Source: a phage
Length of the DNA: 64,000 nucleotides
Reading direction: 5' to 3' (one strand)
Sequence record: PV806337.1
The translations under genes were made by a program, and so were the position numbers. Shown one piece after another: positions 38,551 through 55,049 of the stretch (position 1 is the stretch's first letter; each line of letters opens with the position of its first letter). The notes under the pieces were generated by a model. That model was not told the DNA's origin and did not search any database. It saw nothing but the letters and a program-made list of their open reading frames with translations.

Positions 38551-38628
38551 GGTTCTCAAGCTCATATGGTATGAGCACCCGGCTCATAACCGGAAGGTAC
38601 GTAGGTTCGAATCCTCGGGGAGCCACCA
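38551..38628 (+). tRNA. tRNA with CAT anticodon (Met/fMet/Ile2), non-canonical T-stem
   Basis: Acceptor GGTTCTC/GGGAGCC with G-U pairs; anticodon loop CTCATAA; T-loop TTCGAAT with bulged stem; CCA. Confidence 0.55.
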
Positions 38629-38648
38629 ACTTAATTAGGGGATTACAA

Positions 38649-38837: not shown

Positions 38838-38846
38838 GGAGACTAT

Positions 38847-39032: not shown

Positions 39033-39037
39033 TACCT

Positions 39038-39127
39038 GTGAAACTAAAAGATTATTATATTGGTTGGTTTGTGGGACTAGTAGTAGGATTTTCACTAGGC
39101 TATAATATGTATCAACTAATAAACTGA
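39038..39127 (+). CDS. possible hydrophobic micro-peptide (29 aa, GTG start)
   Basis: VKLKDYYIGWFVGLVVGFSLGYNMYQLIN; speculative. Confidence 0.2.
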   Translation: MKLKDYYIGWFVGLVVGFSLGYNMYQLIN

Positions 39128-39133
39128 TTACAT

Positions 39134-39210
39134 GGGGGTGTAATCGAATTGGCATAGGTACTGGACTTAAAATTCAGGTTTTGTGGGTTCGAATCCCACC
39201 ACCCCTACCA
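39134..39210 (+). tRNA. tRNA, probable anticodon TAA (Leu), short variable arm
   Basis: Acceptor GGGGGTG/CACCCCT, anticodon stem CTGGA/TTCAG with loop CTTAAAA, T-arm GTGGG-TTCGAAT-CCCAC, CCA. Confidence 0.6.
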
Positions 39211-39225
39211 ACTTAAGGAAATAAG

Positions 39226-39393
39226 ATGTATAGACATCCACCTCCGCCAACACGTCGTTCTAGGGAAGTCATCCTTATGGAATTGACTAAAAACTTCAAG
39301 GCAACTCTTGAAGATAGAGATTTAGGCACGGATGAAGACATTGATTTTATTTGTAGACTATTAAAGATGAAACTGGAGAAACAACATGGCTAA
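39226..39393 (+). CDS. hypothetical small protein (55 aa)
   Basis: ATG 11 nt after RBS AAGGAA; stop overlaps next start (ATGGCTAA). Confidence 0.4.
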   Translation: MYRHPPPPTRRSREVILMELTKNFKATLEDRDLGTDEDIDFICRLLKMKLEKQHG

Positions 39394-39592
39394 TCCTGAA
39401 ATTACCGCACAACGTTTCATGCTTAAAGGCATGATTGCTGAAGCAGGTATGACTCAAGAGGTTGCAGACTTTCATAAGCAATTTCTTGATATTATAACTC
39501 TAGCTAAAGAGACTGGAGAAAGAGAACACGGTGCAGCAATTATGGCTATATCTCTTATTAGCCTAGACTTAGCTGAAGAATCTGGAATTTAG
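39386..39592 (+). CDS. hypothetical protein (68 aa)
   Basis: Track ORF. Confidence 0.5.
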   Translation: MANPEITAQRFMLKGMIAEAGMTQEVADFHKQFLDIITLAKETGEREHGAAIMAISLISLDLAEESGI

Positions 39593-39622
39593 CTCCTCCA
39601 AACAGAATTTTTAAAAATGTAC

Positions 39623-39652
39623 TTGCCTTTTGCTTTAAATTTCTGATATAAT
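39623..39652 (+). promoter_or_regulatory. T5-type promoter
   Basis: -35 TTGCCT, 18 bp, -10 TATAAT upstream of 39683. Confidence 0.6.
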
Positions 39653-39682
39653 AGTTATATAAATTGATGAAGGAGTTAACTA

Positions 39683-39958
39683 ATGCAAAATCGTGTTGTA
39701 GCAACTGGTATTGAAAGTGCAATCTGTAAATCCTGGGAAGGCTGGGAAGGTGAGATTGAATGGCTTTATTTCTATGATGTAGAACTTCTACCGGAAGTTA
39801 AAGCTAAATGTGTTGAAGCTGGCATGGCTCCAGATGCAAAAGCTGATATTGATATTTCAATGTCTGAACTTAAAGGTCGTGTAATTACTGTTAGTGATGA
39901 GGGCGAAGAAGTCTTCGAACTTCCATTCTCCTTAACTGTCACTCCTAAGTTCGACTAA
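39683..39958 (+). CDS. hypothetical protein (91 aa)
   Basis: Track ORF with promoter and RBS AAGGAG. Confidence 0.55.
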   Translation: MQNRVVATGIESAICKSWEGWEGEIEWLYFYDVELLPEVKAKCVEAGMAPDAKADIDISMSELKGRVITVSDEGEEVFELPFSLTVTPKFD

Positions 39959-39994
39959 CTAATACAGCATTGGGTAAGTTCTTTAAAATTTGAC

Positions 39995-40023
39995 TTGCTC
40001 AGTGCCTTAAAACTTGGTATAAT
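39995..40023 (+). promoter_or_regulatory. promoter for tRNA sub-cluster (Tyr, Glu, Trp)
   Basis: -35 TTGCTC (overlapping TTGACT), 17 bp, -10 TATAAT. Confidence 0.6.
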
Positions 40024-40039
40024 AGTTATCTAATTTGGA

Positions 40040-40089
40040 AACATATTTAAAAGTGTTTAAACTAGTATTTGAATACTTTTAAATATGTT
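40040..40089 (+). promoter_or_regulatory. 15-bp perfect inverted repeat in tRNA leader
   Basis: AACATATTTAAAAGT ... ACTTTTAAATATGTT separated by 20 nt; right arm ends 3 nt into tRNA-Tyr. Confidence 0.6.
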
Positions 40090-40177
40090 GGATTAGTATC
40101 GTAGAGGTAGCGAAGCAGACTGTAAATCTGCCGACTCGGAAGGGTCTCGGGTGGTTCGACTCCATCATCCAACACCA
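40087..40177 (+). tRNA. tRNA-Tyr (anticodon GTA), long variable arm
   Basis: Acceptor GTTGGAT/ATCCAAC, anticodon stem GCAGA/TCTGC with loop CTGTAAA, T-loop TTCGACT, CCA. Confidence 0.8.
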
Positions 40178-40184
40178 AATTTAA

Positions 40185-40261
40185 GTCCTGTTAGACAAAC
40201 TGGTAAAGTCACTACCCTTTCAAGGTAGGATTTGCGGGTTCGATCCCCGCACAGGACGCCA
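40185..40261 (+). tRNA. tRNA-Glu (anticodon TTC)
   Basis: Acceptor GTCCTGT/ACAGGAC, anticodon stem CTACC/GGTAG with loop CTTTCAA, T-arm GCGGG-TTCGATC-CCCGC, CCA. Confidence 0.8.
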
Positions 40262-40267
40262 TTTTCT

Positions 40268-40346
40268 GCATTCCTAGAGTGTTACTGGACAGCATGTCGG
40301 TCTCCAAAACCGTACGGTCTAGGTTCGAGTCCTAGTAGGTTTGCCA
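40268..40346 (+). tRNA. putative tRNA-Trp (anticodon CCA); acceptor and D stems poorly paired
   Basis: T-arm CTAGG-TTCGAGT-CCTAG then ...G-CCA; anticodon loop CTCCAAA; weak acceptor pairing, possible pseudogene. Confidence 0.45.
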
Positions 40347-40352
40347 AAATTT

Positions 40353-40427
40353 GCACCTTTAGCTGAGATGGATTAGCGCTTGCCTGAAGAGCTTGAGAGG
40401 TTGGATCGTTACCAACGGGGTGCTCCA
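40353..40427 (+). tRNA. tRNA-like, possibly Phe (anticodon GAA), non-canonical T-loop
   Basis: Acceptor GCACCTT/GGGGTGC, D-arm GCTG...TAGC, anticodon loop CTGAAGA with mismatched stem, T-arm GTTGG-ATCGTTA-CCAAC, CCA. Confidence 0.45.
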
Positions 40428-40444
40428 AATTGAAGGAGCTGCTG

Positions 40445-40717
40445 ATGCATCCTGAAAACTTCTTTATTTACTGCGCTGATAAGTCGCTGAAACGTAGAAT
40501 TAACAAAGTCTATCATTATAGTGCTAGTCAACAGCCTTATGTATACGCTTTTGACGGTGATCACATTCCACTAGAACAATTATCTTGTGATTACATGATA
40601 TTGAAGAACTTTGATGAGACGAAGATCTCGAGCGTTCACAATCGACAGAATCCATTAACGTGGAAATATAAGAAGAAAAAGAAAGGCATCAAATTCTTAA
40701 AAAATGTAGTTGCTTAG
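40445..40717 (+). CDS. hypothetical protein (90 aa)
   Basis: ATG 40445 with RBS GAAGGAG; track start 40430 is TTG. Confidence 0.5.
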   Translation: MHPENFFIYCADKSLKRRINKVYHYSASQQPYVYAFDGDHIPLEQLSCDYMILKNFDETKISSVHNRQNPLTWKYKKKKKGIKFLKNVVA

Positions 40718-40738
40718 TTTCCAAAAGTTCTGTATAAT
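40710..40738 (+). promoter_or_regulatory. T5-type promoter upstream of tRNA-Cys
   Basis: -35 TTGCTT, 17 bp, -10 TATAAT. Confidence 0.65.
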
Positions 40739-40786
40739 AATTACATAAATTGAACTGGAGAAGCAACATGACAGAACAAGATAAAC

Positions 40787-40862
40787 CGACCGTTGGCTGA
40801 ATGGCTTAGGCGAAGGATTGCAAATCCTTTTTATGTGAGTTCAAATCTCATGCGGTCGTCCA
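40787..40862 (+). tRNA. tRNA-Cys (anticodon GCA)
   Basis: Acceptor CGACCGT/GCGGTCG, anticodon stem AAGGA/TCCTT with loop TTGCAAA, T-loop TTCAAAT, CCA; promoter directly upstream. Confidence 0.8.
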
Positions 40863-40883
40863 AATTACTAAAGGAAAGAAGTA

Positions 40884-41402
40884 GTGCATACAAAAGTTTT
40901 TGATAGTTTGGTAAAGAAAGGCGTTGTTACTAACGAGCCCTTCTATATAACCGCAGAACTAATCCAGAGATTTATGGAAGAATATATAAATCTTTCAGGA
41001 ACCAATGGTAATACCAAAAAGAATACAAATACTATGTATTCGAGAAAACTTGCTGCACTTTCCTTTATAAAGTTTAAGCAGGAAAATAAACTTCCTATTT
41101 CTGAAGGTTTTGTATACTGTATTAGTAATCCTGCATGGAAAAATCAGTATAAAATAGGTATGAGTCAAAATCCAAAAGAGAGATTAGCTCAATATCAGAC
41201 TTATTCCCCTTATAGGGATTATAAGTTAGAGCATTGGTCTTTTTGGTTTGACAAACGAAAAGGTGAAAAACTAATTCACCAGTATTTCAAAGATTTAAAA
41301 GAACATGAGTGGTTTAGTATAAATTCTAGGGATCTTAGTAAATATCTAGAACGTATTAACTCTAGTTCTGACTTATATGGTTCCTTAGCTCTAATTGGTT
41401 AG
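40884..41402 (+). CDS. T5orf172/GIY-YIG-like domain protein
   Basis: GFVYCISNPAWKNQYKIGMSQNPKERL...EWF; GTG start with RBS AAGGAAAG; last 24 nt overlap a tRNA 5' end. Confidence 0.6.
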   Translation: MHTKVFDSLVKKGVVTNEPFYITAELIQRFMEEYINLSGTNGNTKKNTNTMYSRKLAALSFIKFKQENKLPISEGFVYCISNPAWKNQYKIGMSQNPKERLAQYQTYSPYRDYKLEHWSFWFDKRKGEKLIHQYFKDLKEHEWFSINSRDLSKYLERINSSSDLYGSLALIG

Positions 41403-41456
41403 AGCGGCATCTTGTTAAGTTGAGGGTTGCTGGTTCGAATCCTGCAGGAACCGCCA
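41379..41456 (+). tRNA. tRNA, probable Asn (anticodon GTT)
   Basis: Perfect acceptor GGTTCCT/AGGAACC, D-arm GCTC...GAGC, loop TTGTTAA, T-loop TTCGAAT, CCA; 5' end overlaps CDS 40884-41402. Confidence 0.6.
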
Positions 41457-41558
41457 AATTCTGTGTAGAGTTAAGTAAACCGGTAGCCAACCAGCTATCA
41501 TTGCTGACATCGAATTCAGCCATAGATACCATTTTCGTTAATAACTGAGGAAACAAGC

Positions 41559-41744
41559 ATGTCCAAGAATGTAATTGCGCAGCTAGAAGTTCATCGTGAT
41601 AGCACTATCAACAATATTGAAGTTGAGAAGAAATACATAGAAGAACTTAAACATGATATACTGGTAAGTCTCAACCGTCTTAATGTACGAAAAGAGTTTC
41701 TTAAAGAACTTAATGCAGCTATTGAAAAACTCAAAGCTGAGTAA
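41559..41744 (+). CDS. hypothetical protein (61 aa), coiled coil
   Basis: Track ORF with RBS GAGGAAA. Confidence 0.5.
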   Translation: MSKNVIAQLEVHRDSTINNIEVEKKYIEELKHDILVSLNRLNVRKEFLKELNAAIEKLKAE

Positions 41745-41753
41745 ATGAATTAT

Positions 41754-41830
41754 GCGACCGGGGCTGGCTTGGTAATGGTACTCCCCTGTCACGGGAGAGA
41801 ATGTGGGTTCAAATCCCATCGGTCGCGCCA
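41754..41830 (+). tRNA. tRNA-Asp (anticodon GTC)
   Basis: Acceptor GCGACCG/CGGTCGC, anticodon stem CTCCC/GGGAG with loop CTGTCAC, T-loop TTCAAAT, CCA. Confidence 0.8.
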
Positions 41831-41847
41831 AATAAGGTAGGTTAGCT

Positions 41848-42006
41848 ATGGAACGTAGGGAGTTTACTCCAGAAGAGATAGAGCAGATAAAAGAATCTGC
41901 TATGAAAAATGCTAGAATATCTCTGTCACTGGAAGGTATCATTATTAGTGATGTAAACTTTGAAAAAATCAAAGCCATAGCTGATGAACTGGAAAAAGTA
42001 ATTTAA
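41848..42006 (+). CDS. hypothetical small protein (52 aa)
   Basis: Not in track; ATG after RBS AAGG. Confidence 0.35.
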   Translation: MERREFTPEEIEQIKESAMKNARISLSLEGIIISDVNFEKIKAIADELEKVI

Positions 42007-42007
42007 T

Positions 42008-42083
42008 ACATCCATAGCTCAATGGTTAGAGCTACCGCCTCTTAAGCGGAGGGTTCTAGGTTCAAGTCCTAGTGGGTGTACCA
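42008..42083 (+). tRNA. tRNA-Lys (anticodon CTT)
   Basis: Acceptor ACATCCA/TGGGTGT, D-arm GCTC..GAGC, loop CTCTTAA, T-arm CTAGG-TTCAAGT-CCTAG, CCA. Confidence 0.65.
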
Positions 42084-42109
42084 AATTAAACTAGCACGAG
42101 AAATATGCT

Positions 42110-42457
42110 ATGATTAATGCTAAAGAAGAATTGTTACTTGCCCTAAAGAATACTAATTCTGAAGTTAAGTGTATTAAGATAGAATTCGGTTATTATGGGG
42201 ATAAAGAAGTTTGGGTATTACCCGTAGGTTATACAGAAAAAGATATTGAAGATTTTCTAGATAATCTAGACTTTAAATATGATTCTGGTTTCGGCGGACA
42301 ATTGCTTTATGGTAACGTATGGTTTACCGATGGAACTTGGTTAGAACGTGGTGAATATGATGGTTCTGAATGGTGGGAATATAAGACTACACCAGCAATC
42401 CCAGAAGAATGCCGAACAATTAATGGTGAAGTAGATCGTACTTTACTATTAAATTAA
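42110..42457 (+). CDS. hypothetical protein (115 aa)
   Basis: Track ORF. Confidence 0.55.
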   Translation: MINAKEELLLALKNTNSEVKCIKIEFGYYGDKEVWVLPVGYTEKDIEDFLDNLDFKYDSGFGGQLLYGNVWFTDGTWLERGEYDGSEWWEYKTTPAIPEECRTINGEVDRTLLLN

Positions 42458-42579
42458 CAAAATTTCAGTGCAGAACACGGAGCTAGCAATTCGGAAGTGC
42501 TGACTCATGATAAGCTGCCTATGTACTTGCGAAGCGGTCGTGTCCAAGACTCGGACTCTTGCACTGAAAACAATCAAAC

Positions 42580-42700
42580 ATTCTAGCGTGGTTGATGGGG
42601 AAACCAGCTTGGCGAGGGCAGAAGCTCGTTCGATTCGAGTGAAAGAATGGTTCTCGTAAGTCCGCACAAGTGATAACAGGTTCGAGTCCTGTCTAGAATG
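42580..42700 (+). ncRNA. tRNA-like element about 121 nt, tRNA ends with expanded internal region
   Basis: Perfect 7-bp acceptor ATTCTAG/CTAGAAT, D-arm-like TGGTT-GATGGGGA-AACCA, 3' T-arm ACAGG-TTCGAGT-CCTGT, internal second T-arm-like CTCG-TTCGATT-CGAG; no CCA. Confidence 0.4.
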
Positions 42701-42711
42701 ACACTATAAAG

Positions 42712-42833
42712 TTTACTTATTATGTAGGTTCCGATAGACCGGCGGGTCTATTCTGGCATTTAAGAGAGGTCTCGCAAACTTCTTTGTCAGCCGTGGGGTT
42801 GGTAGCCTCCAGGTGGCCTACACAATAAGTAAA
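42712..42833 (+). ncRNA. structured non-coding element closed by a 17-bp long-range stem
   Basis: TTTACTTATTATGTAGG pairs with CCTACACAATAAGTAAA 105 nt downstream (16/17); internal hairpins AGACC-GGCG-GGTCT; no ORF. Confidence 0.4.
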
Positions 42834-42849
42834 TTTATTAAAAATTCAT

Positions 42850-42878
42850 TTGCTATTCTGCTTTATTATCTGTATAAT
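42850..42878 (+). promoter_or_regulatory. T5-type promoter
   Basis: -35 TTGCTA, 17 bp, -10 TATAAT upstream of small membrane ORF 42911. Confidence 0.7.
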
Positions 42879-42910
42879 ATATTTTATAAAGTGAAGAGAA
42901 GGAAAGCAAA

Positions 42911-43069
42911 ATGAAACACAAGATAGCTCAAGTTTTTATGGCATTATGGTGTATACCAATAGCTATAACAGCATTTAATCTAGATACTTTTACTATAGAA
43001 GAAAAATGTATCGGATTAGTTAGCGGTTTTATTATGCTGGGCTTATCTTTGCTGTGGTTAAAGAACTAA
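42911..43069 (+). CDS. small membrane protein (52 aa)
   Basis: Promoter and RBS GAAGAGAAGGAAAG; two hydrophobic segments. Confidence 0.4.
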   Translation: MKHKIAQVFMALWCIPIAITAFNLDTFTIEEKCIGLVSGFIMLGLSLLWLKN

Positions 43070-43073
43070 TATT

Positions 43074-43151
43074 CTCCGTGTAGCTCAGTTTGGCCAGAGC
43101 GTTTCGTTTGGGGCGATAGGGTCGGGGGTTCAAATCCTCCCACGGAGACCA
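43074..43151 (+). tRNA. tRNA-Pro (anticodon TGG)
   Basis: Acceptor CTCCGTG/CACGGAG, D-arm GCTCAGTTTGGCCAGAGC, loop TTTGGGG, T-loop TTCAAAT, CCA. Confidence 0.7.
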
Positions 43152-43157
43152 AACAAT

Positions 43158-43235
43158 TGCGGGTTAGATCTCTGGTAGAGATCGCTAGTCTCATAAGCTA
43201 GAAAGAGGTAGGTTCGATTCCTGCACCCGCTTCCA
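43158..43235 (+). tRNA. tRNA with CAT anticodon (Met/fMet/Ile2)
   Basis: Anticodon stem CTAGT/GCTAG with loop CTCATAA, T-loop TTCGATT, CCA end. Confidence 0.65.
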
Positions 43236-43255
43236 CTTTAATAGAGGATTTCGAA

Positions 43256-43423
43256 ATGAAAGTATTTCGATTAGTAGTAAGTGACAAACGTTTAGGTAAG
43301 AATACCTCAAAATCCTTACTTGCTCATTATGGAAAAGATGAGAAAGAAGTAATGGCGGAGTTTGGGATTAATCACCCTTACTTGAAAGTTCACTCTATTA
43401 AAGAAGTATATAATGGTTACTAA
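43256..43423 (+). CDS. hypothetical small protein (55 aa)
   Basis: ATG after RBS AGAGGA between two tRNAs. Confidence 0.4.
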   Translation: MKVFRLVVSDKRLGKNTSKSLLAHYGKDEKEVMAEFGINHPYLKVHSIKEVYNGY

Positions 43424-43424
43424 T

Positions 43425-43503
43425 AGATCGCTAGCTCAATAGGTTTAGTAGCATCCGACTTTTAATCGGAAGGTTCTGGGTTCGAGTCCCAGGCGATCTA
43501 CCA
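43425..43503 (+). tRNA. tRNA-Lys (anticodon TTT)
   Basis: Acceptor AGATCGC/GCGATCT, anticodon stem TCCGA/TCGGA with loop CTTTTAA, T-arm CTGGG-TTCGAGT-CCCAG, CCA. Confidence 0.8.
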
Positions 43504-43521
43504 ATTTCAAGAAAAACGCAG

Positions 43522-43550
43522 TTGCTTGATGCTTAATTTCTTGTTATAAT
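43522..43550 (+). promoter_or_regulatory. T5-type promoter driving a structured leader and tRNAs
   Basis: -35 TTGCTT, 17 bp, -10 TATAAT; followed by GAAA-tetraloop hairpin 43564-43583. Confidence 0.65.
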
Positions 43551-43563
43551 ATTTATATAAATT

Positions 43564-43583
43564 GATGAGGAGAAATCCTCATC
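43564..43583 (+). other. GAAA-tetraloop hairpin at 5' end of a promoter-driven transcript
   Basis: GATGAGGA-GAAA-TCCTCATC, about 14 nt downstream of -10 TATAAT. Confidence 0.5.
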
Positions 43584-43787
43584 ATAGTTCACTAAGGTAT
43601 TAGCTCGACCTAGGACTGGCTACCAAAAAGCACGATCCCTACGATTTGGAGAAGTTCTAGATTAGTCCACTAGATTCAGCGGCAACTGAATAGTGTATTG
43701 GGTTTGCGAGATGACGCAGTTCCTTCCGCTCGAAGCGAAGGTGCTGTAGTTACGCCGAGCTAATAGCCTTAGTAAACTAAAGAATTT

Positions 43788-43866
43788 GGGGGATGGGTCT
43801 GCTAGGGGTGGACACCTCACTTGCACCGAGGACATCAGAACGATTCGAATTCGTTATCCTCCACCA
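43788..43866 (+). tRNA. tRNA, probable Ala (anticodon TGC)
   Basis: Acceptor GGGGGAT/ATCCTCC, D-arm GTCT...GGAC, loop CTTGCAC, T-arm AACGA-TTCGAAT-TCGTT, CCA. Confidence 0.6.
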
Positions 43867-43871
43867 AATAC

Positions 43872-43948
43872 GCGTGATTGATGGAATTGGCATACATACC
43901 GTCCTTAGAAGTCGGGTTTTGAGGGTTCGAATCCCTTGTCACGCACCA
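43872..43948 (+). tRNA. tRNA, probable anticodon TAG (Leu), short variable arm
   Basis: Acceptor GCGTGAT/GTCACGC, loop CTTAGAA, T-arm GAGGG-TTCGAAT-CCCTT, CCA. Confidence 0.55.
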
Positions 43949-44073
43949 AATTTGATGGTCAGAGTAAATTAAACCTACTATCTCGGTTGAGCTGTTTTAA
44001 TGGGTTCGAATCCCAGCGAGGCGTAACTGCCTGGTGTGATAGAGGCATCATTCCACTAACATTGGAAAAACTA

Positions 44074-44304
44074 ATGAAACGAAAATTAAAAAAGTCTTAT
44101 ATAATTAAGATAAATAAGCTACGAAGTAGGGCAAAAGGATGGCCACTTCGAATATTAATTGCGGATAACCATACTAGATACCATGCGGAACAACGTCATT
44201 ACAAACAGTGGGAGTCATACTGCCGCTCAAAAGCAGGTCGTTTAGATGGATCTTATGAGTTTCTATTTGGTAAGAAGCCTACTAGAGTAGCTTTAGGTAA
44301 TTAA
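44074..44304 (+). CDS. hypothetical small basic protein (76 aa)
   Basis: Internal ATG of track ORF 43936..44304, whose N-terminus overlaps a tRNA; weak RBS. Confidence 0.3.
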   Translation: MKRKLKKSYIIKINKLRSRAKGWPLRILIADNHTRYHAEQRHYKQWESYCRSKAGRLDGSYEFLFGKKPTRVALGN

Positions 44305-44309
44305 TACTT

Positions 44310-44400
44310 GGAAGAGCAAATCGAATTGGCGACGAAAACCGCTTGGAAAGTGGCTGACTGGTAAAACGGCTTGAGAGTTCAAATCTCTCCTCTTCCGCCA
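44310..44400 (+). tRNA. tRNA-Ser-like (probable anticodon GGA), long variable arm
   Basis: Acceptor GGAAGAG/CTCTTCC, T-arm GAGAG-TTCAAAT-CTCTC, CCA; candidate loop TTGGAAA. Confidence 0.55.
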
Positions 44401-44412
44401 AACAATTTATAT

Positions 44413-44507
44413 GGTAGGTCAATCCAATGGCTGGCGTGGGACTCCGACTTGAAATCGGTTGATCGTAGTGATACGGTGTAAGGGTTCGATCCCCTTACCT
44501 ACCTCCA
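44413..44507 (+). tRNA. tRNA-Ser-like (probable anticodon TGA), long variable arm
   Basis: Acceptor GGTAGGT/ACCTACC, anticodon hairpin CCGA-CTTGAAA-TCGG, extra arm CGTA-GTGA-TACG, T-arm AAGGG-TTCGATC-CCCTT, CCA. Confidence 0.6.
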
Positions 44508-44512
44508 AATCT

Positions 44513-44644
44513 TGAAGTATGCCGGAATCGGTAGACGGGGCTGCCTAAAAGGTTTATAGGGAACATCCACTCCCTGCAACATACCTCATAAAGCGGCTGA
44601 GATAAATGGTCTATCTCGTGAAGGTTCAAGTCCTTCTGCTTCTT
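44513..44644 (+). ncRNA. tRNA-Leu-like element about 130 nt with extra internal sequence
   Basis: 5' TGAAGTA-TG-CCG-GAATCGGTAGA-CGG resembles type II Leu D-arm; 3' T-arm GAAGG-TTCAAGT-CCTTC; acceptor 6/7 pairs; extra hairpin GAGATA/TATCTC. Confidence 0.35.
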
Positions 44645-44873
44645 GATATATCTATGGCTCAAAGTGTAACGGTGCTATTTGATGCTCTTAGTAAGACTTT
44701 CCCGACATGCGTTCGGGAGTAAGCTGCTAAGGCTAGAGTAGAAGAGTTTCGGAGAGCCGCCACAATTGAAAATTCGTACTCGTCTTGAGCTGCGCGCAAT
44801 AGGAGATAACTTGATTAGTATTCTAGAACATGCTAATTGAGGATGGTTTCGCTAACCCTGCGAGTTTTCAATT

Positions 44874-44950
44874 GTGGCTATATCATAATTGGTTAATGAT
44901 CCTGATTGTGAATCAGGCCTATGTGGATTCGAATTCCACTAGCCACCCCA
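44874..44950 (+). tRNA. tRNA-His (anticodon GTG)
   Basis: Acceptor GTGGCTA/TAGCCAC, anticodon stem CCTGA/TCAGG with loop TTGTGAA, T-arm GTGGA-TTCGAAT-TCCAC, CCA. Confidence 0.8.
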
Positions 44951-44975
44951 AATTAACTTAAACAGGAAATAAAAT

Positions 44976-45170
44976 ATGGCTGATTTCTGCAAACAATGCT
45001 CCATTGATATGTGGGGCAGAGATACTGGTGATCTTTCTGGTTTGATTACAGAAGCTGAAGTTAAAGAAGGCTACGGTGCAGTTGTAGTTTGCGAAGGCTG
45101 TGGAGTTATTCGAGTAGATCATGAAGGCAAACGTTTAGAAGAACCTGGGCCAACTACTCTAATTCCATAG
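44976..45170 (+). CDS. hypothetical Cys-containing protein (64 aa)
   Basis: Track ORF with RBS AGGAAA; CxxC...CxxC. Confidence 0.5.
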   Translation: MADFCKQCSIDMWGRDTGDLSGLITEAEVKEGYGAVVVCEGCGVIRVDHEGKRLEEPGPTTLIP

Positions 45171-45182
45171 AGTAATAATTAT

Positions 45183-45258
45183 TGGGATGTAGATCAATTG
45201 GCAGATCGTCGGCCTCTGACTCCGAAGGTTCCACGTTCGATCCGTGGCATCCCAGCCA
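45183..45258 (+). tRNA. tRNA-Gln (anticodon CTG)
   Basis: Acceptor TGGGATG/CATCCCA, D-arm GATC..GATC, loop CTCTGAC, T-arm CCACG-TTCGATC-CGTGG, CCA. Confidence 0.7.
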
Positions 45259-45264
45259 AACAAT

Positions 45265-45340
45265 TGGAGAGTAGTGTAACGGTTAGCACAACGGCCTTTG
45301 ACTCCGTTAATGGTAGGTTCGATTCCTCCTTCTCCAGCCA
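45265..45340 (+). tRNA. tRNA-Gln (anticodon TTG)
   Basis: Acceptor TGGAGAG/TTCTCCA, loop CTTTGAC (paralogous to previous tRNA), T-loop TTCGATT, CCA. Confidence 0.7.
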
Positions 45341-45348
45341 AATAATAA

Positions 45349-45424
45349 GCGGTTAAGCACACGGGTTGTGTCGCAGGCCTTCCAAGCCTCGCTGAGTAGG
45401 GTTCGATTCCCTCTAGCCGCTCCA
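45349..45424 (+). tRNA. tRNA-Gly (anticodon TCC)
   Basis: Acceptor GCGGTTA/TAGCCGC, anticodon stem AGGC/GCCT with loop CTTCCAA, T-loop TTCGATT, CCA. Confidence 0.7.
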
Positions 45425-45440
45425 ACTTTAAGGAAATGTT

Positions 45441-45662
45441 ATGCACGTTTTTGAGTTTCGTAATAAAAATACTGATAAGCGAGTTATCATTATTGGAGAA
45501 ACATACCGAGCATATGAACAAACTGACGGCTCTGTTATCTTGAATGATGAGAAAGGAGGTTTTAGCTTTTATCCAGAAGAACCTTATGAAGAGTTTCGTA
45601 CTAAGTTTCTTTTACCAGACTGGCTAGCAGTAGCTGAGCAACGAGAATCCGAAGATGGCTGA
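45441..45662 (+). CDS. hypothetical protein (73 aa)
   Basis: Track ORF with RBS AAGGAAA. Confidence 0.55.
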   Translation: MHVFEFRNKNTDKRVIIIGETYRAYEQTDGSVILNDEKGGFSFYPEEPYEEFRTKFLLPDWLAVAEQRESEDG

Positions 45663-45819
45663 TAACCTAAAATTAAGGGTCGACAAACAAAAGAAATACA
45701 TTGAGGTTGAATTAGGCGAAGAACGCTTAAAGCTAACTTTCGAGTTTCTTCAGCAGTTGGCAATGACAGTTATGACTGATAAGTCTCCTGTTATTGAAAA
45801 AGAAATCCCGTTGAAATAA
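45655..45819 (+). CDS. hypothetical small protein (54 aa)
   Basis: ATG overlapping previous stop (ATGGCTGA); not in track. Confidence 0.35.
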   Translation: MADNLKLRVDKQKKYIEVELGEERLKLTFEFLQQLAMTVMTDKSPVIEKEIPLK

Positions 45820-45827
45820 CGGGTTCT

Positions 45828-45902
45828 GCTCCTAAAGCATTGCTGGCGATGCAGTTGCCTTGTAAGCATCTGAACCGGGTTCGATTCCTGGTGGGAGCAC
45901 CA
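45828..45902 (+). tRNA. tRNA-Thr (anticodon TGT)
   Basis: Acceptor GCTCCTA/TGGGAGC, D-arm GCAT..ATGC, loop CTTGTAA, T-arm CCGGG-TTCGATT-CCTGG, CCA. Confidence 0.7.
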
Positions 45903-45917
45903 AATTTAAAAATTCAT

Positions 45918-45946
45918 TTGCCTTCTCTCTTATTTCTTGTTATAAT
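45918..45946 (+). promoter_or_regulatory. T5-type promoter
   Basis: -35 TTGCCT, 17 bp, -10 TATAAT upstream of 45977. Confidence 0.7.
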
Positions 45947-45976
45947 ATTTATATAAATTAATGAGAGGGAAACCAA

Positions 45977-46270
45977 ATGAAACGTTATCTTTCTGTAGTA
46001 TTTCAAACTGGTGGTCAAAGATATACCTATGAATTTCCTAACTCTTGGAAAATCAAAGAAGGTGATCAAGTTGTTGTGTTAACACCACGTGAAGGATATA
46101 AAGTAGTAACTGTTAAACAAGTATTCCCAAAAGATCATGAACCAGCTAAAGGCATTTGCTATAAGATGATTCATGGTGTAGTTCGTCAAGTACCACGAGC
46201 GGAAGTCGAAATCAAAATAGATAAAGATGGTAAACTTAAATACACCTCCTGCTTAGACGAGTTGCTATAA
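45977..46270 (+). CDS. hypothetical protein (97 aa)
   Basis: Track ORF with promoter and RBS GAGAGGGAAA. Confidence 0.55.
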   Translation: MKRYLSVVFQTGGQRYTYEFPNSWKIKEGDQVVVLTPREGYKVVTVKQVFPKDHEPAKGICYKMIHGVVRQVPRAEVEIKIDKDGKLKYTSCLDELL

Positions 46271-46476
46271 TGAGGATTACTTTTACAGAAAAGATCATGA
46301 GTAATGGTGTTATGATCATTACCGCATGGGATGGTAATCAGTGGTGTAGTGTTTCAGGTATTAAACCTGAAGAACAAACACTAGAAAATATCTCAAAGAT
46401 TAAGCGAAGAATGGCAGAACGTGCACGACTTCCAGGTGCACCCAGAAATGGCAAACGTTCTGCAACTAAATGTTAA
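46270..46476 (+). CDS. hypothetical protein (68 aa)
   Basis: Track ORF overlapping previous stop. Confidence 0.5.
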   Translation: MRITFTEKIMSNGVMIITAWDGNQWCSVSGIKPEEQTLENISKIKRRMAERARLPGAPRNGKRSATKC

Positions 46477-46477
46477 T

Positions 46478-46554
46478 GCTTCGGTAGCTTAGCGATCTAA
46501 AGCACTCGGCTGATAACCGAGAGATCGGGGGTTTAAATCCCTCCCGGAGTACCA
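46478..46554 (+). tRNA. tRNA-Ile (anticodon GAT)
   Basis: Acceptor GCTTCGG/CCGGAGT, anticodon stem CTCGG/CCGAG with loop CTGATAA, T-loop TTTAAAT, CCA. Confidence 0.75.
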
Positions 46555-46650
46555 AATTTAGGAATTAAGACTATGCGTCCAGGAAAGTTTAAAAAAGCTA
46601 ATTGGTCTAAAGAGTATAAAGAATACTTACTTAGTCTAATAAAACATAAT

Positions 46651-46726
46651 AGTTAGTTGGCAGAGTGGTTATGCACCTCCTTCATACGGAGCGATTACAG
46701 TGGTTCAAATCCACTACTAACTACCA
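46651..46726 (+). tRNA. tRNA with CAT anticodon (Met/fMet/Ile2)
   Basis: Acceptor AGTTAGT/ACTAACT, anticodon stem CTCC/GGAG with loop TTCATAC, T-arm AGTGG-TTCAAAT-CCACT, CCA. Confidence 0.7.
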
Positions 46727-50579: not shown

Positions 50580-51278
50580 ATGAGGATTATTTCTAAGTTC
50601 GCCGATGTGTATGATTTGCAGAACAGTTTGTTCGACCCAGATCGTGTTTGGGAGCGTAAAACTGAAGAGTTGCTGGTTAAAGTAACCGATGATGCAGAAA
50701 AGAACATTGTGCATACTCGCCAGGTATTTCGTGATGGCTCGCTATCTTTTCGTGGTGATTTCGAATATTTTGTAAACCCACTATTTGTTGCAGGTGAAGT
50801 TTACTGGTTGCACGAGCTGTACTGCTGGCATCCGGCATTTAGCTTCAAAACGTTCAACCTCGACACTATGTTCGATAAAATGGAAGAGATGGGGTTGCAT
50901 GCCCGCTCTTATTTAATGGATAAGAGTCGCGGAGATGTTCGTGAAACAATGCGTGATTTGCTCGCTGAAGCAAAACCTAAAGCAGAACGTATCTTATCCG
51001 AACTGCGTGTACCGATTGCATATGTGAAAGGTATTAAAAAGAACGATAACGATGATGTTCGTAACTTCGTGATTCAGACTAACATTCGTTTCCATCAGTC
51101 AGGTATTCCGTGGCAGGAAATTGAAAGTAACTTATACCGTTTACACCAAGTTCTCGAACAGTATATCTTCGGTGTACTAGGAACTGGTGAGCCTGATATG
51201 ATTAAAGTATCAGATAAAGACAGGTTAGCAGCGCATGGATTTGATACAAAAACTTCTTTCAGGAATATGGCAAGGTAA
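50580..51278 (+). CDS. hypothetical protein (232 aa)
   Basis: Track ORF with promoter and RBS. Confidence 0.6.
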   Translation: MRIISKFADVYDLQNSLFDPDRVWERKTEELLVKVTDDAEKNIVHTRQVFRDGSLSFRGDFEYFVNPLFVAGEVYWLHELYCWHPAFSFKTFNLDTMFDKMEEMGLHARSYLMDKSRGDVRETMRDLLAEAKPKAERILSELRVPIAYVKGIKKNDNDDVRNFVIQTNIRFHQSGIPWQEIESNLYRLHQVLEQYIFGVLGTGEPDMIKVSDKDRLAAHGFDTKTSFRNMAR

Positions 51279-51684
51279 GTGGTATATCCTGGGAGCAGGT
51301 CTAGCGATAGGCATCGGGTTCGGTGCTTATCACTTAGTAGATAAAGTGGAGACTTTAGCAGGAGATCTTGCGGTAGCTACTAAAAAGATTTCTTCTCTAG
51401 AGACTTCCCTCAATAAGGTGAAAGCTGAAAGCGAACTTCGTGAGACTAGAATGAATCAGTATTTCACAATGAATAATATTTCGCAAGCAGATCTAGACAA
51501 AAAGATTAAGCAGTTAGACAAAGCTCTTAGTCGCCAAGATATTATAGCTGCAAAGCCTGGATTGGTAACATTAATTGCTAAAAAGCAGAGTAAAGAGTTC
51601 GAGGAAAGATTAGCATGTTTAACTGGAAACTTGGAATACTGCTCGCAGCCGCAATCACAATCACAGGCTGTGCAGAAGAAATAA
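51235..51684 (+). CDS. membrane-anchored coiled-coil protein (possible i-spanin-like)
   Basis: N-terminal TM WYILGAGLAIGIGFGAYHLV then coiled coil; overlaps both neighbours. Confidence 0.5.
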   Translation: MDLIQKLLSGIWQGKWYILGAGLAIGIGFGAYHLVDKVETLAGDLAVATKKISSLETSLNKVKAESELRETRMNQYFTMNNISQADLDKKIKQLDKALSRQDIIAAKPGLVTLIAKKQSKEFEERLACLTGNLEYCSQPQSQSQAVQKK

Positions 51685-51968
51685 AACCAGAGCCATCTCA
51701 TGAGTTAAAGCAAGCTCATGTAGACTGGCCTAAAGGACTTCAACCTTGTAGCTTTGACTTTAAGTTTGAAAAGAAAGTAGCTACAAATGGAGAAGATGGC
51801 GTAGTAGTTGTTGTACCATATAAAGATTGGAATATGTTGGCAAAATGCCGTGAGGCAGAATATTCATATATTTCACGACTGACAAGTATGGTTTGCTTCT
51901 ATCGCCAAGATTTACAAGAAAAACGTTGCTTAGTTTACTATCCACCCATTACAAATAGGAAAGATTAA
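51615..51968 (+). CDS. lipoprotein (possible o-spanin-like)
   Basis: Lipobox LAAAITITGC; start embedded in upstream gene; RBS GAGGAAAG. Confidence 0.5.
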   Translation: MFNWKLGILLAAAITITGCAEEIKPEPSHELKQAHVDWPKGLQPCSFDFKFEKKVATNGEDGVVVVVPYKDWNMLAKCREAEYSYISRLTSMVCFYRQDLQEKRCLVYYPPITNRKD

Positions 51969-53332: not shown

Positions 53333-53342
53333 GTAATTTTAA

Positions 53343-53374
53343 GCCAGGGTTAAGTACCCTGGCTTTTCTTTTAT
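53343..53374 (+). terminator. rho-independent terminator before lysis cassette
   Basis: GCCAGGG-TTAAGTA-CCCTGGC followed by TTTTCTTTT. Confidence 0.75.
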
Positions 53375-53434: not shown

Positions 53435-53463
53435 TTGAAATTTTCCTCCAAAATTAGTATAAT
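53435..53463 (+). promoter_or_regulatory. promoter for holin-endolysin cassette
   Basis: -35 TTGAAA, 17 bp, -10 TATAAT, then RBS AGAGGAGG and TTG start. Confidence 0.6.
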
Positions 53464-53488
53464 GGTACTGGTTAGAGGAGGTTACAAA

Positions 53489-54145
53489 TTGGAAAAGTTC
53501 TTACAATTATTAACAGTACTGCTCCAAGAAGCGAAAGACCCAGCATCGCTTCTTAAACGTCTGCTAACTATCTTAGTTGCTGTCATTATTTTCTTATTTG
53601 TTAGTAATACTAGTGAAGTGATGTCATTCTTAAAGACTTTTTCCACGTCTGCAGTTTTACAGGATTTACAAACCCAGAGGATAGATAACTTCCCTAATGT
53701 GGCGAGGGAAAAGAGCATGGTTCTCTTCTCTCAGACGGGTGCAGATGCTGTTTTTGTAGTCAAGTATAAACCAGATGCTATCAATGACTATTCCAATATT
53801 ATTGCATGGGAAAGTAATGCGCAATTAGATAGGGCTGACTTGGCCGATAAAGCGGTAAATAAAACGTCTGAATTATACAGACGTCATTTAGAGGGCTTTA
53901 ACTACGCATCGGATCTAAGTGTAAGAGTAAATAAATATATGGGGTTAAATATACCTGCGTTTAAAAACGTTACTTTTAATTACATATACACTTGTCCATA
54001 CTTCAATCTAAAAAATATCTATGCTGGGTACATTGGTATTGCTTGGAAAGATAATCCGGTAGATACAGCTGATTCTGAACAGTTCAAGGAATATTTAGCA
54101 AAGCTCTGTTCCCCACAACAGAGATCTTTAGGTAGATCAATATGA
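53489..54145 (+). CDS. hol: holin (218 aa, TTG start)
   Basis: RBS AGAGGAGG then TTG; N-terminal TM; immediately upstream of and overlapping endolysin. Confidence 0.65.
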   Translation: MEKFLQLLTVLLQEAKDPASLLKRLLTILVAVIIFLFVSNTSEVMSFLKTFSTSAVLQDLQTQRIDNFPNVAREKSMVLFSQTGADAVFVVKYKPDAINDYSNIIAWESNAQLDRADLADKAVNKTSELYRRHLEGFNYASDLSVRVNKYMGLNIPAFKNVTFNYIYTCPYFNLKNIYAGYIGIAWKDNPVDTADSEQFKEYLAKLCSPQQRSLGRSI

Positions 54146-54555
54146 GTTTTAAATTTGGTAAAAATAGTGAAAAACAATTAGCTACCGTTAAGCCCGAACT
54201 ACAAAAAGTAGCTCGTAGGGCTTTAGAACTATCTCCGTATGATTTCACAATCGTGCAAGGTATTCGTACAGTAGCACAAAGTGCCCAGAACATTGCTAAT
54301 GGTACTTCATTTCTAAAAGATCCTAGTAAAAGCAAACATATTACTGGGGATGCTATTGATTTTGCTCCATATATTAATGGCAAAATTGATTGGAATGACT
54401 TAGAAGCATTTTGGGCAGTTAAAAAGGCTTTTGAACAAGCTGGTAAAGAGCTAGGCATTAAACTTCGTTTTGGTGCTGATTGGAATGCTTCGGGAGATTA
54501 TCACGACGAAATAAAACGTGGTACCTATGATGGCGGTCATGTCGAACTAGTTTAA
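54142..54555 (+). CDS. lys: endolysin, zinc L-alanyl-D-glutamate peptidase (M15)
   Basis: 137 aa MSFKFGKNSEKQLATVKPEL... matches my recollection of T5 endolysin; zinc ligands HITGDAID and GGHVEL. Confidence 0.9.
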   Translation: MSFKFGKNSEKQLATVKPELQKVARRALELSPYDFTIVQGIRTVAQSAQNIANGTSFLKDPSKSKHITGDAIDFAPYINGKIDWNDLEAFWAVKKAFEQAGKELGIKLRFGADWNASGDYHDEIKRGTYDGGHVELV

Positions 54556-54632: not shown

Positions 54633-55049
54633 ATGTTTGCAGAACTATTCACTATGATGCTGCTAGGTATCTGGAAAATAAGTCTAGTAGTATTCGTTTT
54701 AATGATAGTCTTTACTATCATTGCATTAACTACCCGAAATAGCTTATTAATAAAGGTTATTCACGGACTAGAGTATATAATTATGGGTTCATTCGGCGTT
54801 TGTAAATGCAATTGCCATAGAGATACGAAATATTGTTGGTTATGGATGGAACTAGAGAATCCTATATCCATAGCTTTGGCTGTTTCATTCGGTATGATTC
54901 TTATGGCCCTTACTCTAGCATTAATACCTTTGATGTTAGCTGGGGGAGTTACAGCGTATTTCACCCTTTTCTCCCCGATACTTATGTACTCAATTTACCC
55001 AATAACTATGTATCTAGTTAGGAAAAAATTTATACATACAGTAGATTAA
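54633..55049 (+). CDS. multi-pass membrane protein (138 aa)
   Basis: Track ORF with RBS AGGAGAAAG; four hydrophobic segments. Confidence 0.5.
   Translation: MFAELFTMMLLGIWKISLVVFVLMIVFTIIALTTRNSLLIKVIHGLEYIIMGSFGVCKCNCHRDTKYCWLWMELENPISIALAVSFGMILMALTLALIPLMLAGGVTAYFTLFSPILMYSIYPITMYLVRKKFIHTVD

What the first reader, a model, noticed from the sequence alone, without database searches (positions are those of the whole stretch)
51235..51968. Overlapping membrane coiled-coil protein and lipoprotein resembling an i-spanin/o-spanin pair
ORF 51235-51684 has an N-terminal TM helix followed by a coiled coil, and ORF 51615-51968 starts inside it in another frame and encodes a lipobox (ITGC) lipoprotein with several Cys. 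This embedded or overlapping arrangement is the hallmark of two-component spanins, although the pair lies about 1.5 kb upstream of the holin-endolysin genes and the lipoprotein is longer than typical o-spanins.
Basis: partly seen in the sequence, partly recalled or inferred. Interest (0 to 1): 0.45.

Follow-up and report, generated by a model that had tools for sequence, protein, structure and literature searches.

The report
T5-type overlapped spanin gene pair

Summary
Both ORFs are at the stated coordinates. ORF 51235-51684 (149 aa) has one N-terminal membrane helix followed by a long heptad-patterned helix. ORF 51615-51968 (117 aa) starts 70 nt before the first ORF ends, in another frame. 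It has a lipoprotein signal peptide with lipobox ITG|C.

The window is a T5-like phage (Demerecviridae). The pair is 93% and 95% identical to T5.045 and T5.044, and public records annotate it as i-spanin/o-spanin at the homologous positions. It matches the "T5 family" of overlapped spanins in Kongari et al. 2018, which reports the same 70-bp overlap.

Both proteins fall in the PHROG families that hold T4 PseT.3 and PseT.2, a pair shown to replace lambda Rz/Rz1. The lipidated Cys and the two Cys that are essential in T4 PseT.2 are invariant in my alignment. Gene order (i-spanin, o-spanin, dNMP kinase, Clp-like protease, terminator, promoter, T-type holin, endolysin) holds in four Demerecviridae compared and as far as the protease in a fifth.

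The function is inferred by homology. I found no direct test of the T5 pair, and CRISPRi-ART knockdown of T5.044/T5.045 showed no fitness effect.

Verdict: already known, low interest.

The parts
51235..51684 (+). i-spanin gene (149 aa), homologue of T5.045 and T4 PseT.3
   Evidence: ORF. PHROG 739 at E 1.4e-37. 93% identical to T5.045. BLASTP against T4 PseT.3 gives 5e-6. Annotated i-spanin in DaisyDussoix.
51283..51339 (+). Single N-terminal transmembrane helix of the i-spanin (residues 17-35, YILGAGLAIGIGFGAYHLV)
   Evidence: Highest Kyte-Doolittle 19-residue window, mean 1.55.
51340..51471 (+). Periplasmic helix alpha-1 of the i-spanin, with a heptad (coiled-coil-like) pattern
   Evidence: Heptad a/d score 0.95 for the 28-residue windows starting at residues 36-38. 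The AF2 helix spans residues 30-79 with pLDDT 81-90 in its core. The profile weakly matches coiled-coil chains in the PDB.
51547..51567 (+). AAKPGLV motif of the i-spanin; K107, P108 and L110 are the only invariant columns shared with T4-like PseT.3
   Evidence: Alignment A2; coordinates checked.
51616..51642 (+). CLTGNLEYC: the two periplasmic Cys (128, 136) of the i-spanin C-terminal tail. Present in all Demerecviridae compared and absent from T4-type PseT.3.
   Evidence: Alignment A2; sequences.
51601..51606 (+). Shine-Dalgarno GAGGAA for the o-spanin, lying inside i-spanin codons, 8 nt before the ATG
   Evidence: An equivalent purine-rich site sits at the same place in all relatives.
51615..51684 (+). 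70-nt dual-coding overlap: the i-spanin tail in one frame and the o-spanin signal peptide in another
   Evidence: Same length as published for T5. 15 of 70 sites vary, without the third-position excess seen in the single-coding parts.
51615..51968 (+). o-spanin gene (117 aa precursor; 99 aa mature including the lipidated Cys), homologue of T5.044 and T4 PseT.2
   Evidence: ORF. PHROG 812 at E 5.1e-30. 95% identical to T5.044. BLASTP against T4 PseT.2 gives 9e-7.
51660..51671 (+). Lipobox ITGC (Cys19 is the lipidated residue; residue +2 is Ala)
   Evidence: Pattern tests. G18 and C19 are invariant in alignment A1.
51894..51929 (+). Segment bounded by Cys94 and Cys105 of the o-spanin, aligned with C87 and C98 of T4 PseT.2
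   Evidence: Invariant columns in A1. Both Cys are essential in T4 PseT.2 according to PMC6139136.
51747..51848 (+). Segment bounded by the extra Cys pair (Cys45, Cys78) of the o-spanin. Present in most Demerecviridae, absent from PSTCR5 and the T4-like phages.
   Evidence: Alignment A1.
53341..53365 (+). Intrinsic-terminator-like hairpin (10 pairs plus a T run) that ends the transcription unit carrying the spanin genes
   Evidence: T5 has a terminator annotated at the same place.
53435..53463 (+). Promoter-like site (TTGAAA, 17 nt spacer, TATAAT) for the holin-endolysin operon
   Evidence: T5 has a promoter annotated at the same place.
53489..54145 (+). Class III (T4 T-type) holin, most likely starting at TTG 53489
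   Evidence: Pfam PF11031 at E 2.8e-112. Annotated start in DaisyDussoix. GAGGAGG upstream of the TTG.
54142..54555 (+). Endolysin (M15-type L-alanyl-D-glutamate peptidase, as in T5 lys)
   Evidence: PHROG 465 at E 1.1e-54. Pfam Peptidase_M15_4. T5.040 homologue.

Best explanation
The two ORFs are the two-component spanin of a T5-like phage.

Shown here: the anatomy, the homology and the conservation.

Inferred from the lambda Rz/Rz1 and T4 PseT.3/PseT.2 systems:
- The 149-aa protein inserts in the inner membrane through its single N-terminal helix (N-in, C-out). It projects a mostly helical 114-residue domain into the periplasm.
- The 117-aa protein is exported, lipidated on Cys19, cleaved by signal peptidase II, and sorted to the inner leaflet of the outer membrane because residue +2 is Ala rather than Asp.
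- The two periplasmic domains bind through their C-terminal parts and form a complex that spans the periplasm and threads the peptidoglycan mesh.
- Homotypic disulfides stabilise the complex. In T4 PseT.2 the pair corresponding to Cys94 and Cys105 is required.
- The complex stays inert while the cell wall is intact. Once the T-type holin releases the M15 endolysin and the wall is degraded, the complexes can move and change shape. They then fuse the inner and outer membranes, which removes the last barrier to phage release.

The genes sit in an upstream transcription unit with dnk and the Clp-like protease, not in the holin-endolysin operon. The spanin is therefore probably made ahead of time and simply waits for the wall to go.
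For: - Anatomy: transmembrane helix, heptad helix, lipobox, Ala at +2, no C-terminal membrane segment in the lipoprotein, and a 70-nt out-of-frame overlap with its own Shine-Dalgarno site.
- Family: PHROG 739 and 812 'Rz-like spanin' at E 1.4e-37 and 5.1e-30. These are the PHROGs assigned to T4 pseT.3 and pseT.2.
- Identity to T5: 93% and 95% to T5.045 and T5.044, which are annotated Rz-like spanins similar to T4 PseT.3/PseT.2.
- Literature: Kongari et al. 2018 define a T5 spanin family with a 70-bp overlap. They show that T4 PseT.3/PseT.2 complement a lambda Rz-am Rz1-am lysis defect, and that PseT.2 C87 and C98 are both essential (PMC6139136).
- Direct homology to T4: BLASTP 5e-6 (i-spanin) and 9e-7 (o-spanin).
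- Conserved residues: lipobox G-C, Cys94, Cys105 and the KPxL motif are invariant.
- Selection: third-codon-position variation dominates in each ORF's own frame, and both ORFs are intact in 14 relatives.
- Synteny: spanins, dnk, Clp-like protease, holin, endolysin in T5, Slocum, Klebsiella K7_rec16 and Proteus VTCCBPA139.
- Transcription signals: terminator at 53341-53365 and promoter at 53435-53463, matching T5's annotated signals.
Against: - I found no experiment on the T5-family pair itself.
- CRISPRi-ART knockdown of T5.044 and T5.045 is scored 'Not Fit', meaning no measurable fitness cost (PMC11879866, supplementary file 16). This fits the conditional phenotype of spanin mutants but does not support a lysis role.
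- Pfam and NCBIfam have no model that matches either protein, and no solved structure is related.
- The single-sequence AlphaFold2 models are weak, with mean pLDDT 48 (o-spanin) and 63 (i-spanin).
- Membrane localisation, lipidation, complex formation, disulfide bonding and membrane fusion are all inferred by homology. None was tested here.
Confidence: 0.93

Rival explanations
1. The pair is homologous to PseT.3/PseT.2 but serves another envelope function in T5-like phages, such as superinfection exclusion or early envelope remodelling, rather than outer-membrane disruption at lysis.
For: The genes lie in a transcription unit with dnk and a Clp-like protease. A terminator and a promoter separate that unit from holin and endolysin. 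Knockdown of T5.044 and T5.045 shows no fitness effect. No direct lysis assay for this family was found.
Against: T4's spanin genes also lie in a region unlinked from its holin and endolysin genes, yet they complement lambda Rz/Rz1. The residues essential in T4 PseT.2 are invariant here. Spanin mutants of lambda are known to be conditional, so a 'Not Fit' score is expected. In the ~6-kb region examined around the lysis genes, no other ORF matched a spanin family or stood out as a spanin candidate.
Confidence: 0.04
2. The lipoprotein is a receptor-blocking, superinfection-exclusion lipoprotein of the T5 Llp kind, and the upstream membrane protein is unrelated to it.
For: T5-like phages are known to encode such a lipoprotein (my own knowledge). 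The o-spanin profile has a marginal hit to a PDB chain named 'Phage lipoprotein' (9rps_D, E 0.16), but only over the signal peptide.
Against: That hit covers profile positions 4-29 only, which is the signal sequence. The mature domain is homologous to T4 PseT.2. The coupling with the i-spanin gene, at a homologous start position, holds from T4-like phages to Demerecviridae.
Confidence: 0.02
3. The second ORF is a chance open frame and is not expressed, so only the membrane coiled-coil protein is real.
For: Several public records leave it unannotated or truncated.
Against: It is intact with a conserved lipobox in every relative examined, down to 24% identity. Variation is dominated by the third codon position in its own frame. 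It has a conserved Shine-Dalgarno site. It matches PHROG 812 at E 5e-30. Kongari et al. explain the missing annotations as gene-caller bias against overlapping genes.
Confidence: 0.01

Closest known systems
Phage T5 T5.045/T5.044 (the 'T5 family' of overlapped spanins, Kongari et al. 2018)
   Same: 93% and 95% amino-acid identity. Same 70-nt overlap, frame offset and Shine-Dalgarno site, and same neighbours (T5.047 homologue upstream, dnk downstream).
   Different: T5 carries the HNH endonuclease gene hegF between T5.047 and the i-spanin; the window does not. As a result the first ~10 residues of the i-spanin differ, and its start overlaps the upstream ORF by 44 nt.
Phage T4 PseT.3/PseT.2 (experimentally validated 'separated' spanins)
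   Same: Same PHROG families, 739 and 812. Alignable over the transmembrane helix, helix alpha-1, the KPGLV motif, the lipobox, the central strand-helix region and the C-terminal CxYR...C pair. The o-spanin start sits at the homologous point of the i-spanin gene. The genes are not next to holin or endolysin.
   Different: Only 22-28% identity. T4 PseT.3 has no Cys and stops 4 nt into pseT.2. Here the i-spanin reads on for 70 nt and gains a CxxGxxxxC tail, and the o-spanin has an extra Cys pair at 45 and 78.
Phage lambda Rz/Rz1
   Same: Same functional layout: a type II inner-membrane protein with a helical periplasmic domain plus an outer-membrane lipoprotein, with periplasmic Cys in both.
   Different: No sequence similarity was detected, and no Pfam family reached its threshold. 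Lambda's Rz1 is wholly embedded in Rz; it is 40 aa when mature, proline-rich and unstructured. Here the genes only overlap, the mature lipoprotein is 99 aa, and strand and helix elements are predicted for it (low confidence).
Phage P2 LysB/LysC (overlapped spanin gene pair)
   Same: Named with lambda Rz/Rz1 and T4 PseT.3/PseT.2 as a paradigm two-component spanin system. That its genes overlap, as here, is my own knowledge.
   Different: I made no sequence comparison with P2. It is listed as a separate paradigm system.
Phage T1 gp11 (unimolecular spanin)
   Same: Outer-membrane lipoprotein signal, and a role in outer-membrane disruption.
   Different: A u-spanin is a single protein carrying both a lipobox and a C-terminal membrane helix. 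The lipoprotein here has no C-terminal hydrophobic segment and has a partner i-spanin.

Membership tests
Two-component spanin (generic definition, Summer 2007 / Kongari 2018) | i-spanin: a single N-terminal transmembrane domain with a largely helical periplasmic domain | tested here: met
   Kyte-Doolittle mean 1.55 at residues 17-35 and no other membrane segment. Helix over residues 30-79 and further helices in the AF2 model. Heptad pattern.
Two-component spanin (generic definition, Summer 2007 / Kongari 2018) | o-spanin: a lipoprotein signal peptide with a lipobox Cys and no inner-membrane retention residue (Asp) at +2 | tested here: met
   ITG|C fits [LVI][ASTVI][GAS]C and a PS51257-style rule, and residue +2 is Ala. 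G18 and C19 are invariant in A1. No dedicated predictor (LipoP, SignalP) was available.
Two-component spanin (generic definition, Summer 2007 / Kongari 2018) | The o-spanin gene is embedded in, overlapping, or immediately after the i-spanin gene | tested here: met
   70-nt overlap with a frame offset of 2.
Two-component spanin (generic definition, Summer 2007 / Kongari 2018) | At least one periplasmic Cys available for homotypic disulfide bonds | tested here: met
   Cys128 and Cys136 in the i-spanin; Cys45, 78, 94 and 105 in the mature o-spanin. Actual disulfide formation was not testable.
Two-component spanin (generic definition, Summer 2007 / Kongari 2018) | Required for outer-membrane disruption; complements lambda Rz-am Rz1-am | not testable with these tools
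   No experiment on the T5 family was found. Knockdown in T5 shows no fitness effect. The T4 homologues do complement.
Two-component spanin (generic definition, Summer 2007 / Kongari 2018) | Physical complex between the C-terminal parts of the i- and o-spanin | not testable with these tools
   No complex prediction or binding assay was available.
T5 spanin family (Kongari et al. 2018) | Sequence homology to T5 i- and o-spanins, with the overlapped (70 bp) or separated arrangement | tested here: met
   93% and 95% identity to T5.045 and T5.044. 70-nt overlap as published.
T4 PseT.3/PseT.2 family (PHROG 739 / PHROG 812) | Significant match to the family profiles and to the T4 proteins | tested here: met
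   E 1.4e-37 and 5.1e-30. T4 genes are assigned to the same PHROGs. BLASTP 5e-6 and 9e-7.
T4 PseT.3/PseT.2 family (PHROG 739 / PHROG 812) | The two C-terminal Cys of the o-spanin that are essential in T4 (C87, C98) | tested here: met
   Cys94 and Cys105 are invariant columns in A1. Their essentiality in T4 comes from PMC6139136.
T4 PseT.3/PseT.2 family (PHROG 739 / PHROG 812) | Cys-free i-spanin and a 'separated' gene arrangement, as in T4 | tested here: not met
   The i-spanin here has two Cys in a C-terminal tail, and the genes overlap by 70 nt against 4 nt in T4 and PEi20. This is a subfamily difference and does not argue against homology.
Lambda Rz/Rz1 family | Sequence membership (Pfam Rz and Rz1 models) and an embedded gene arrangement | tested here: not met
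   No Pfam family reaches its threshold for either protein. The o-spanin gene extends 284 nt beyond the i-spanin stop.
Unimolecular spanin (T1 gp11 type) | One protein carrying both an N-terminal lipobox and a C-terminal transmembrane helix | tested here: not met
   The only hydrophobic windows in the 117-aa protein start at residues 1-7.

The most novel reading that the evidence does not exclude
T5-type spanins may be a covalently distinct sub-type of the T4 PseT.3/PseT.2 family.

Compared with T4-like phages, the o-spanin start sits at the homologous point of the i-spanin gene. The Demerecviridae i-spanin, however, reads on for 34-88 nt and gains a CxxGxxxxC tail, which is encoded over the o-spanin signal peptide. 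Most Demerecviridae o-spanins also gain a second Cys pair (Cys45, Cys78).

If the i-spanin tail forms intermolecular disulfides, as lambda Rz C152 does, the T5 complex would combine lambda-type cross-linking of the i-spanin with T4-type cross-linking of the o-spanin. The overlap itself would then have arisen by simple displacement of a stop codon, rather than by the duplication-and-deletion route proposed for other families.
Probability: 0.3. Interest if true: 0.2.

Novelty: already known. Interest (0 to 1): 0.08.

Why it matters
It matters little for discovery. The pair is in the literature (the T5 family of Kongari et al. 2018) and in many GenBank records.

Its practical value is for annotation. 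Several deposited T5-like genomes still leave the overlapping o-spanin uncalled or truncated, so confirming coordinates, start codon and lipobox helps annotate this window correctly.

There is also a small evolutionary point. The overlap corresponds to a Cys-bearing C-terminal extension of the i-spanin relative to T4-type homologues. That would make a neat test case for how overlapping spanin genes arise and how disulfide architecture varies within one family.

Tried and rejected
- Pfam and NCBIfam scans gave nothing above threshold for either protein. The sub-threshold FtsL, MctB and similar hits to the i-spanin only reflect the 'membrane helix plus coiled coil' layout.
- PDB profile searches found no related solved structure. 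There were only generic coiled-coil chains for the i-spanin and signal-peptide-only hits for the o-spanin.
- The single-sequence AlphaFold2 models were too weak (mean pLDDT 48 and 63) to justify fold searches, so none was run.
- I did not run the large protein-database searches. The phage collection already settled identity, and they would not have changed the verdict.
- Literature searches for a direct functional test of T5.044/T5.045 found only Kongari 2018 and the CRISPRi-ART fitness table.
- The antisense ORF 51456-51701 (81 aa) was rejected as spurious because it is interrupted by stops in close relatives.
- The Llp-type exclusion lipoprotein and u-spanin readings were considered and rejected.
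Full report
**Observation**

The ORF listing shows ORF 51235-51684 (+, 149 aa, ATG) and ORF 51615-51968 (+, 117 aa, ATG). They share 70 nt (51615-51684), and the second ORF is offset by 2 in frame.

The 149-aa protein has one strongly hydrophobic 19-residue window at residues 17-35, YILGAGLAIGIGFGAYHLV (Kyte-Doolittle mean 1.55). A heptad a/d hydrophobic pattern follows, peaking for the 28-residue windows that start at residues 36-38. A single-sequence AlphaFold2 model gives one helix over residues 30-79, with pLDDT 81-90 across residues 41-70, and shorter helices up to residue 129. A profile of the family weakly matches coiled-coil chains in the PDB, such as Lpp, M protein and tropomyosin, and no specific fold.

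The 117-aa protein begins MFNWKLGILLAAAITITG|C. This fits the lipobox consensus and a PROSITE-PS51257-style rule. Residue +2 is Ala. Four more Cys lie at 45, 78, 94 and 105, and there is no C-terminal hydrophobic segment. A GAGGAA Shine-Dalgarno sequence lies 8 nt before its ATG, inside i-spanin codons. The arrangement is 'overlapped', not 'embedded'.

**What the window is**

The 4.6 kb around the finding is 97% identical to T5-like phages. There are 457 matching records, mostly from Salmonella and Escherichia Demerecviridae. In phage DaisyDussoix the homologous ORFs are annotated i-spanin and o-spanin at exactly corresponding positions.

In T5 itself they are T5.045 (147 aa) and T5.044 (117 aa). 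Both are annotated 'Rz-like spanin', with notes of similarity to T4 PseT.3/PseT.2. They are 93% and 95% identical to the window proteins.

PHROG 739 and PHROG 812 ('Rz-like spanin', lysis category) match at E 1.4e-37 and 5.1e-30. T4 pseT.3 and pseT.2 are assigned to these same PHROGs in the re-annotation table of PMC11879866.

**Literature**

Kongari et al. 2018 (PMC6139136) define a 'T5 family' of two-component spanins. Its members are EPS7, Stitch, SPC35, AKFV33, FFH1, DT57C and T5 (overlapped), and phiR201 and Shivani (separated by an inserted homing-endonuclease gene). The paper states that 'the T5 spanins overlap by 70 bp'.

The same paper shows three things about T4. PseT.3/PseT.2 complement the lambda Rz-am Rz1-am lysis defect. 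PseT.2 C87 and C98 are both essential. The T4 spanin genes are not near the holin gene t or the endolysin gene e.

**Homology to T4 and conservation**

I extracted the pairs from the following phages:
- T5, Shivani, Serratia phage Slocum and a Klebsiella phage
- Proteus phage VTCCBPA139 and Providencia phage PSTCR5
- the T4-like Edwardsiella phage PEi20, and T4 itself

BLASTP of the window proteins against T4 PseT.3 and PseT.2 gives 5e-6 and 9e-7.

In the o-spanin alignment the invariant columns are M1, G18, C19 (lipobox), P25, P39, C94, Y96, E102 and C105. C94 and C105 align with T4 C87 and C98. In the i-spanin alignment K107, P108 and L110 of an AAKPGLV motif are invariant.

Among nine close relatives (88-97% nucleotide identity) both frames are intact. 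Variable sites concentrate at the third codon position of each ORF's own frame:
- i-only part: 53 of 115 third positions vary, against 14 and 6 of 116 for positions 1 and 2.
- o-only part: 43 of 95 third positions vary, against 10 of 94 and 11 of 95.
- Overlap: 15 of 70 sites vary, with no such third-position excess.

The antisense ORF 51456-51701 is broken in close relatives and is spurious.

**Origin of the overlap**

In every phage compared, the o-spanin start lies at the homologous point of the i-spanin gene. It sits just after codons for a conserved F-(E/Q)-E-like stretch that doubles as the Shine-Dalgarno site.
- In T4 and PEi20 the i-spanin stops there, leaving a 4-nt overlap.
- In Demerecviridae it reads on for 34, 49, 70, 76 or 88 nt.
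- The extension always carries a CxxGxxxxC motif, here CLTGNLEYC with Cys128 and Cys136. T4-type PseT.3 lacks it.

Most Demerecviridae o-spanins also carry an extra Cys pair (45, 78). It is absent from PSTCR5 and the T4-like phages. This is the only respect in which the pair departs from the tested T4 model, and it is the basis of the modest 'novel reading'.

**Context**

Four other Demerecviridae share the gene order of the window: T5.047 homologue, i-spanin, o-spanin, dNMP kinase, Clp-like protease, holin, endolysin. They are T5, Slocum, Klebsiella K7_rec16 and Proteus VTCCBPA139. The Providencia PSTCR5 locus shows the same order as far as the protease.

A strong terminator-like hairpin (53341-53365) follows the protease gene. 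A promoter-like site with 11 of 12 consensus matches (53435-53463) precedes the holin. Both match features annotated in T5.

The holin is a T4 T-type (class III) holin: Pfam PF11031 at E 2.8e-112. Its likely start is TTG 53489, behind GAGGAGG. The endolysin is an M15 peptidase.

It is a conserved property of the family and parallels T4.

**Mechanism**

The mechanism is inferred from the lambda and T4 work summarised in PMC6139136.
- The i-spanin is anchored in the inner membrane and the lipidated o-spanin in the outer membrane.
- Their periplasmic domains associate through their C-terminal parts and are stabilised by homotypic disulfides.
- The complexes are held inactive by the intact murein.
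- After holin-triggered release of the endolysin they fuse the two membranes.

None of these steps was tested for the T5 family. Localisation, lipidation, complex formation and fusion are all inference.

The one functional data point I found is neutral. CRISPRi-ART knockdown of T5.044 and T5.045 is scored 'Not Fit'. That is what one expects of spanins, whose mutant phenotype in lambda is conditional.

**What led nowhere**

- Pfam and NCBIfam have no matching model.
- There is no related solved structure.
- The o-spanin AlphaFold2 model is poor (mean pLDDT 48). Its strand-helix-strand-strand order loosely recalls the beta1-alpha-beta2 prediction published for PseT.2, but it cannot bear weight.

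**Verdict**

The feature is already known and ordinary for a T5-like phage, so interest is low.

Noticed in passing
window 50580-51278: This is the T5.047 homologue (PHROG 4243, unknown function, 232 aa). It overlaps the i-spanin start by 44 nt. T5 has the HNH endonuclease gene hegF inserted between the two genes, and the window does not. T5.047 is scored 'Fit' (knockdown costs the phage fitness) in CRISPRi-ART, unlike the spanins, yet it has no known function.
   Followed up: partly
window 54633-55049: This is the T5.039 homologue (PHROG 5944, 138 aa). T5 annotates it as having four transmembrane domains. It lies directly after the endolysin gene, has no known function and no Pfam or NCBIfam match. 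It could be lysis-related, but nothing shows it.
   Followed up: no
window 34846-46726: A cluster of 21 tRNA genes, all on the + strand, typical of T5-like phages.
   Followed up: no
window 53435-53491: The mechanical ORF start of the holin (TTG 53435) coincides with the -35 hexamer of a promoter-like site. The real start is most likely TTG 53489, behind GAGGAGG, giving the 218-aa holin annotated in T5 and DaisyDussoix.
   Followed up: yes
L011, L012, L014, L015 (phagemcphageface, APCEc03, oselot, PNJ1902): Several deposited T5-like genomes do not annotate the overlapping o-spanin gene, or call only a truncated piece (APCEc03, locus 706-954). The full ORF with its lipobox is intact in all of them.
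   Followed up: yes
L001, L012, L016 and L014, aligned to window 51615-51968: The o-spanin start codon is GTG instead of ATG in DaisyDussoix, APCEc03 and EPS7. Phage oselot has a 3-residue GED duplication in the mature o-spanin.
   Followed up: partly
hits H34 (MG065642.1) and H120 (OR847290.1): Sequences nearly identical to T5-like spanin genes are deposited as 'Campylobacter phage A148' (113 kb) and 'Listeria phage LM 4-11-1'. These host labels are implausible for Demerecviridae and suggest mislabelling or contamination.
   Followed up: no
L008 1815-2513 (Salmonella phage Shivani): In Shivani a ~700-bp gene sits between the i- and o-spanin genes. [quoted passage not shown]
   Followed up: partly
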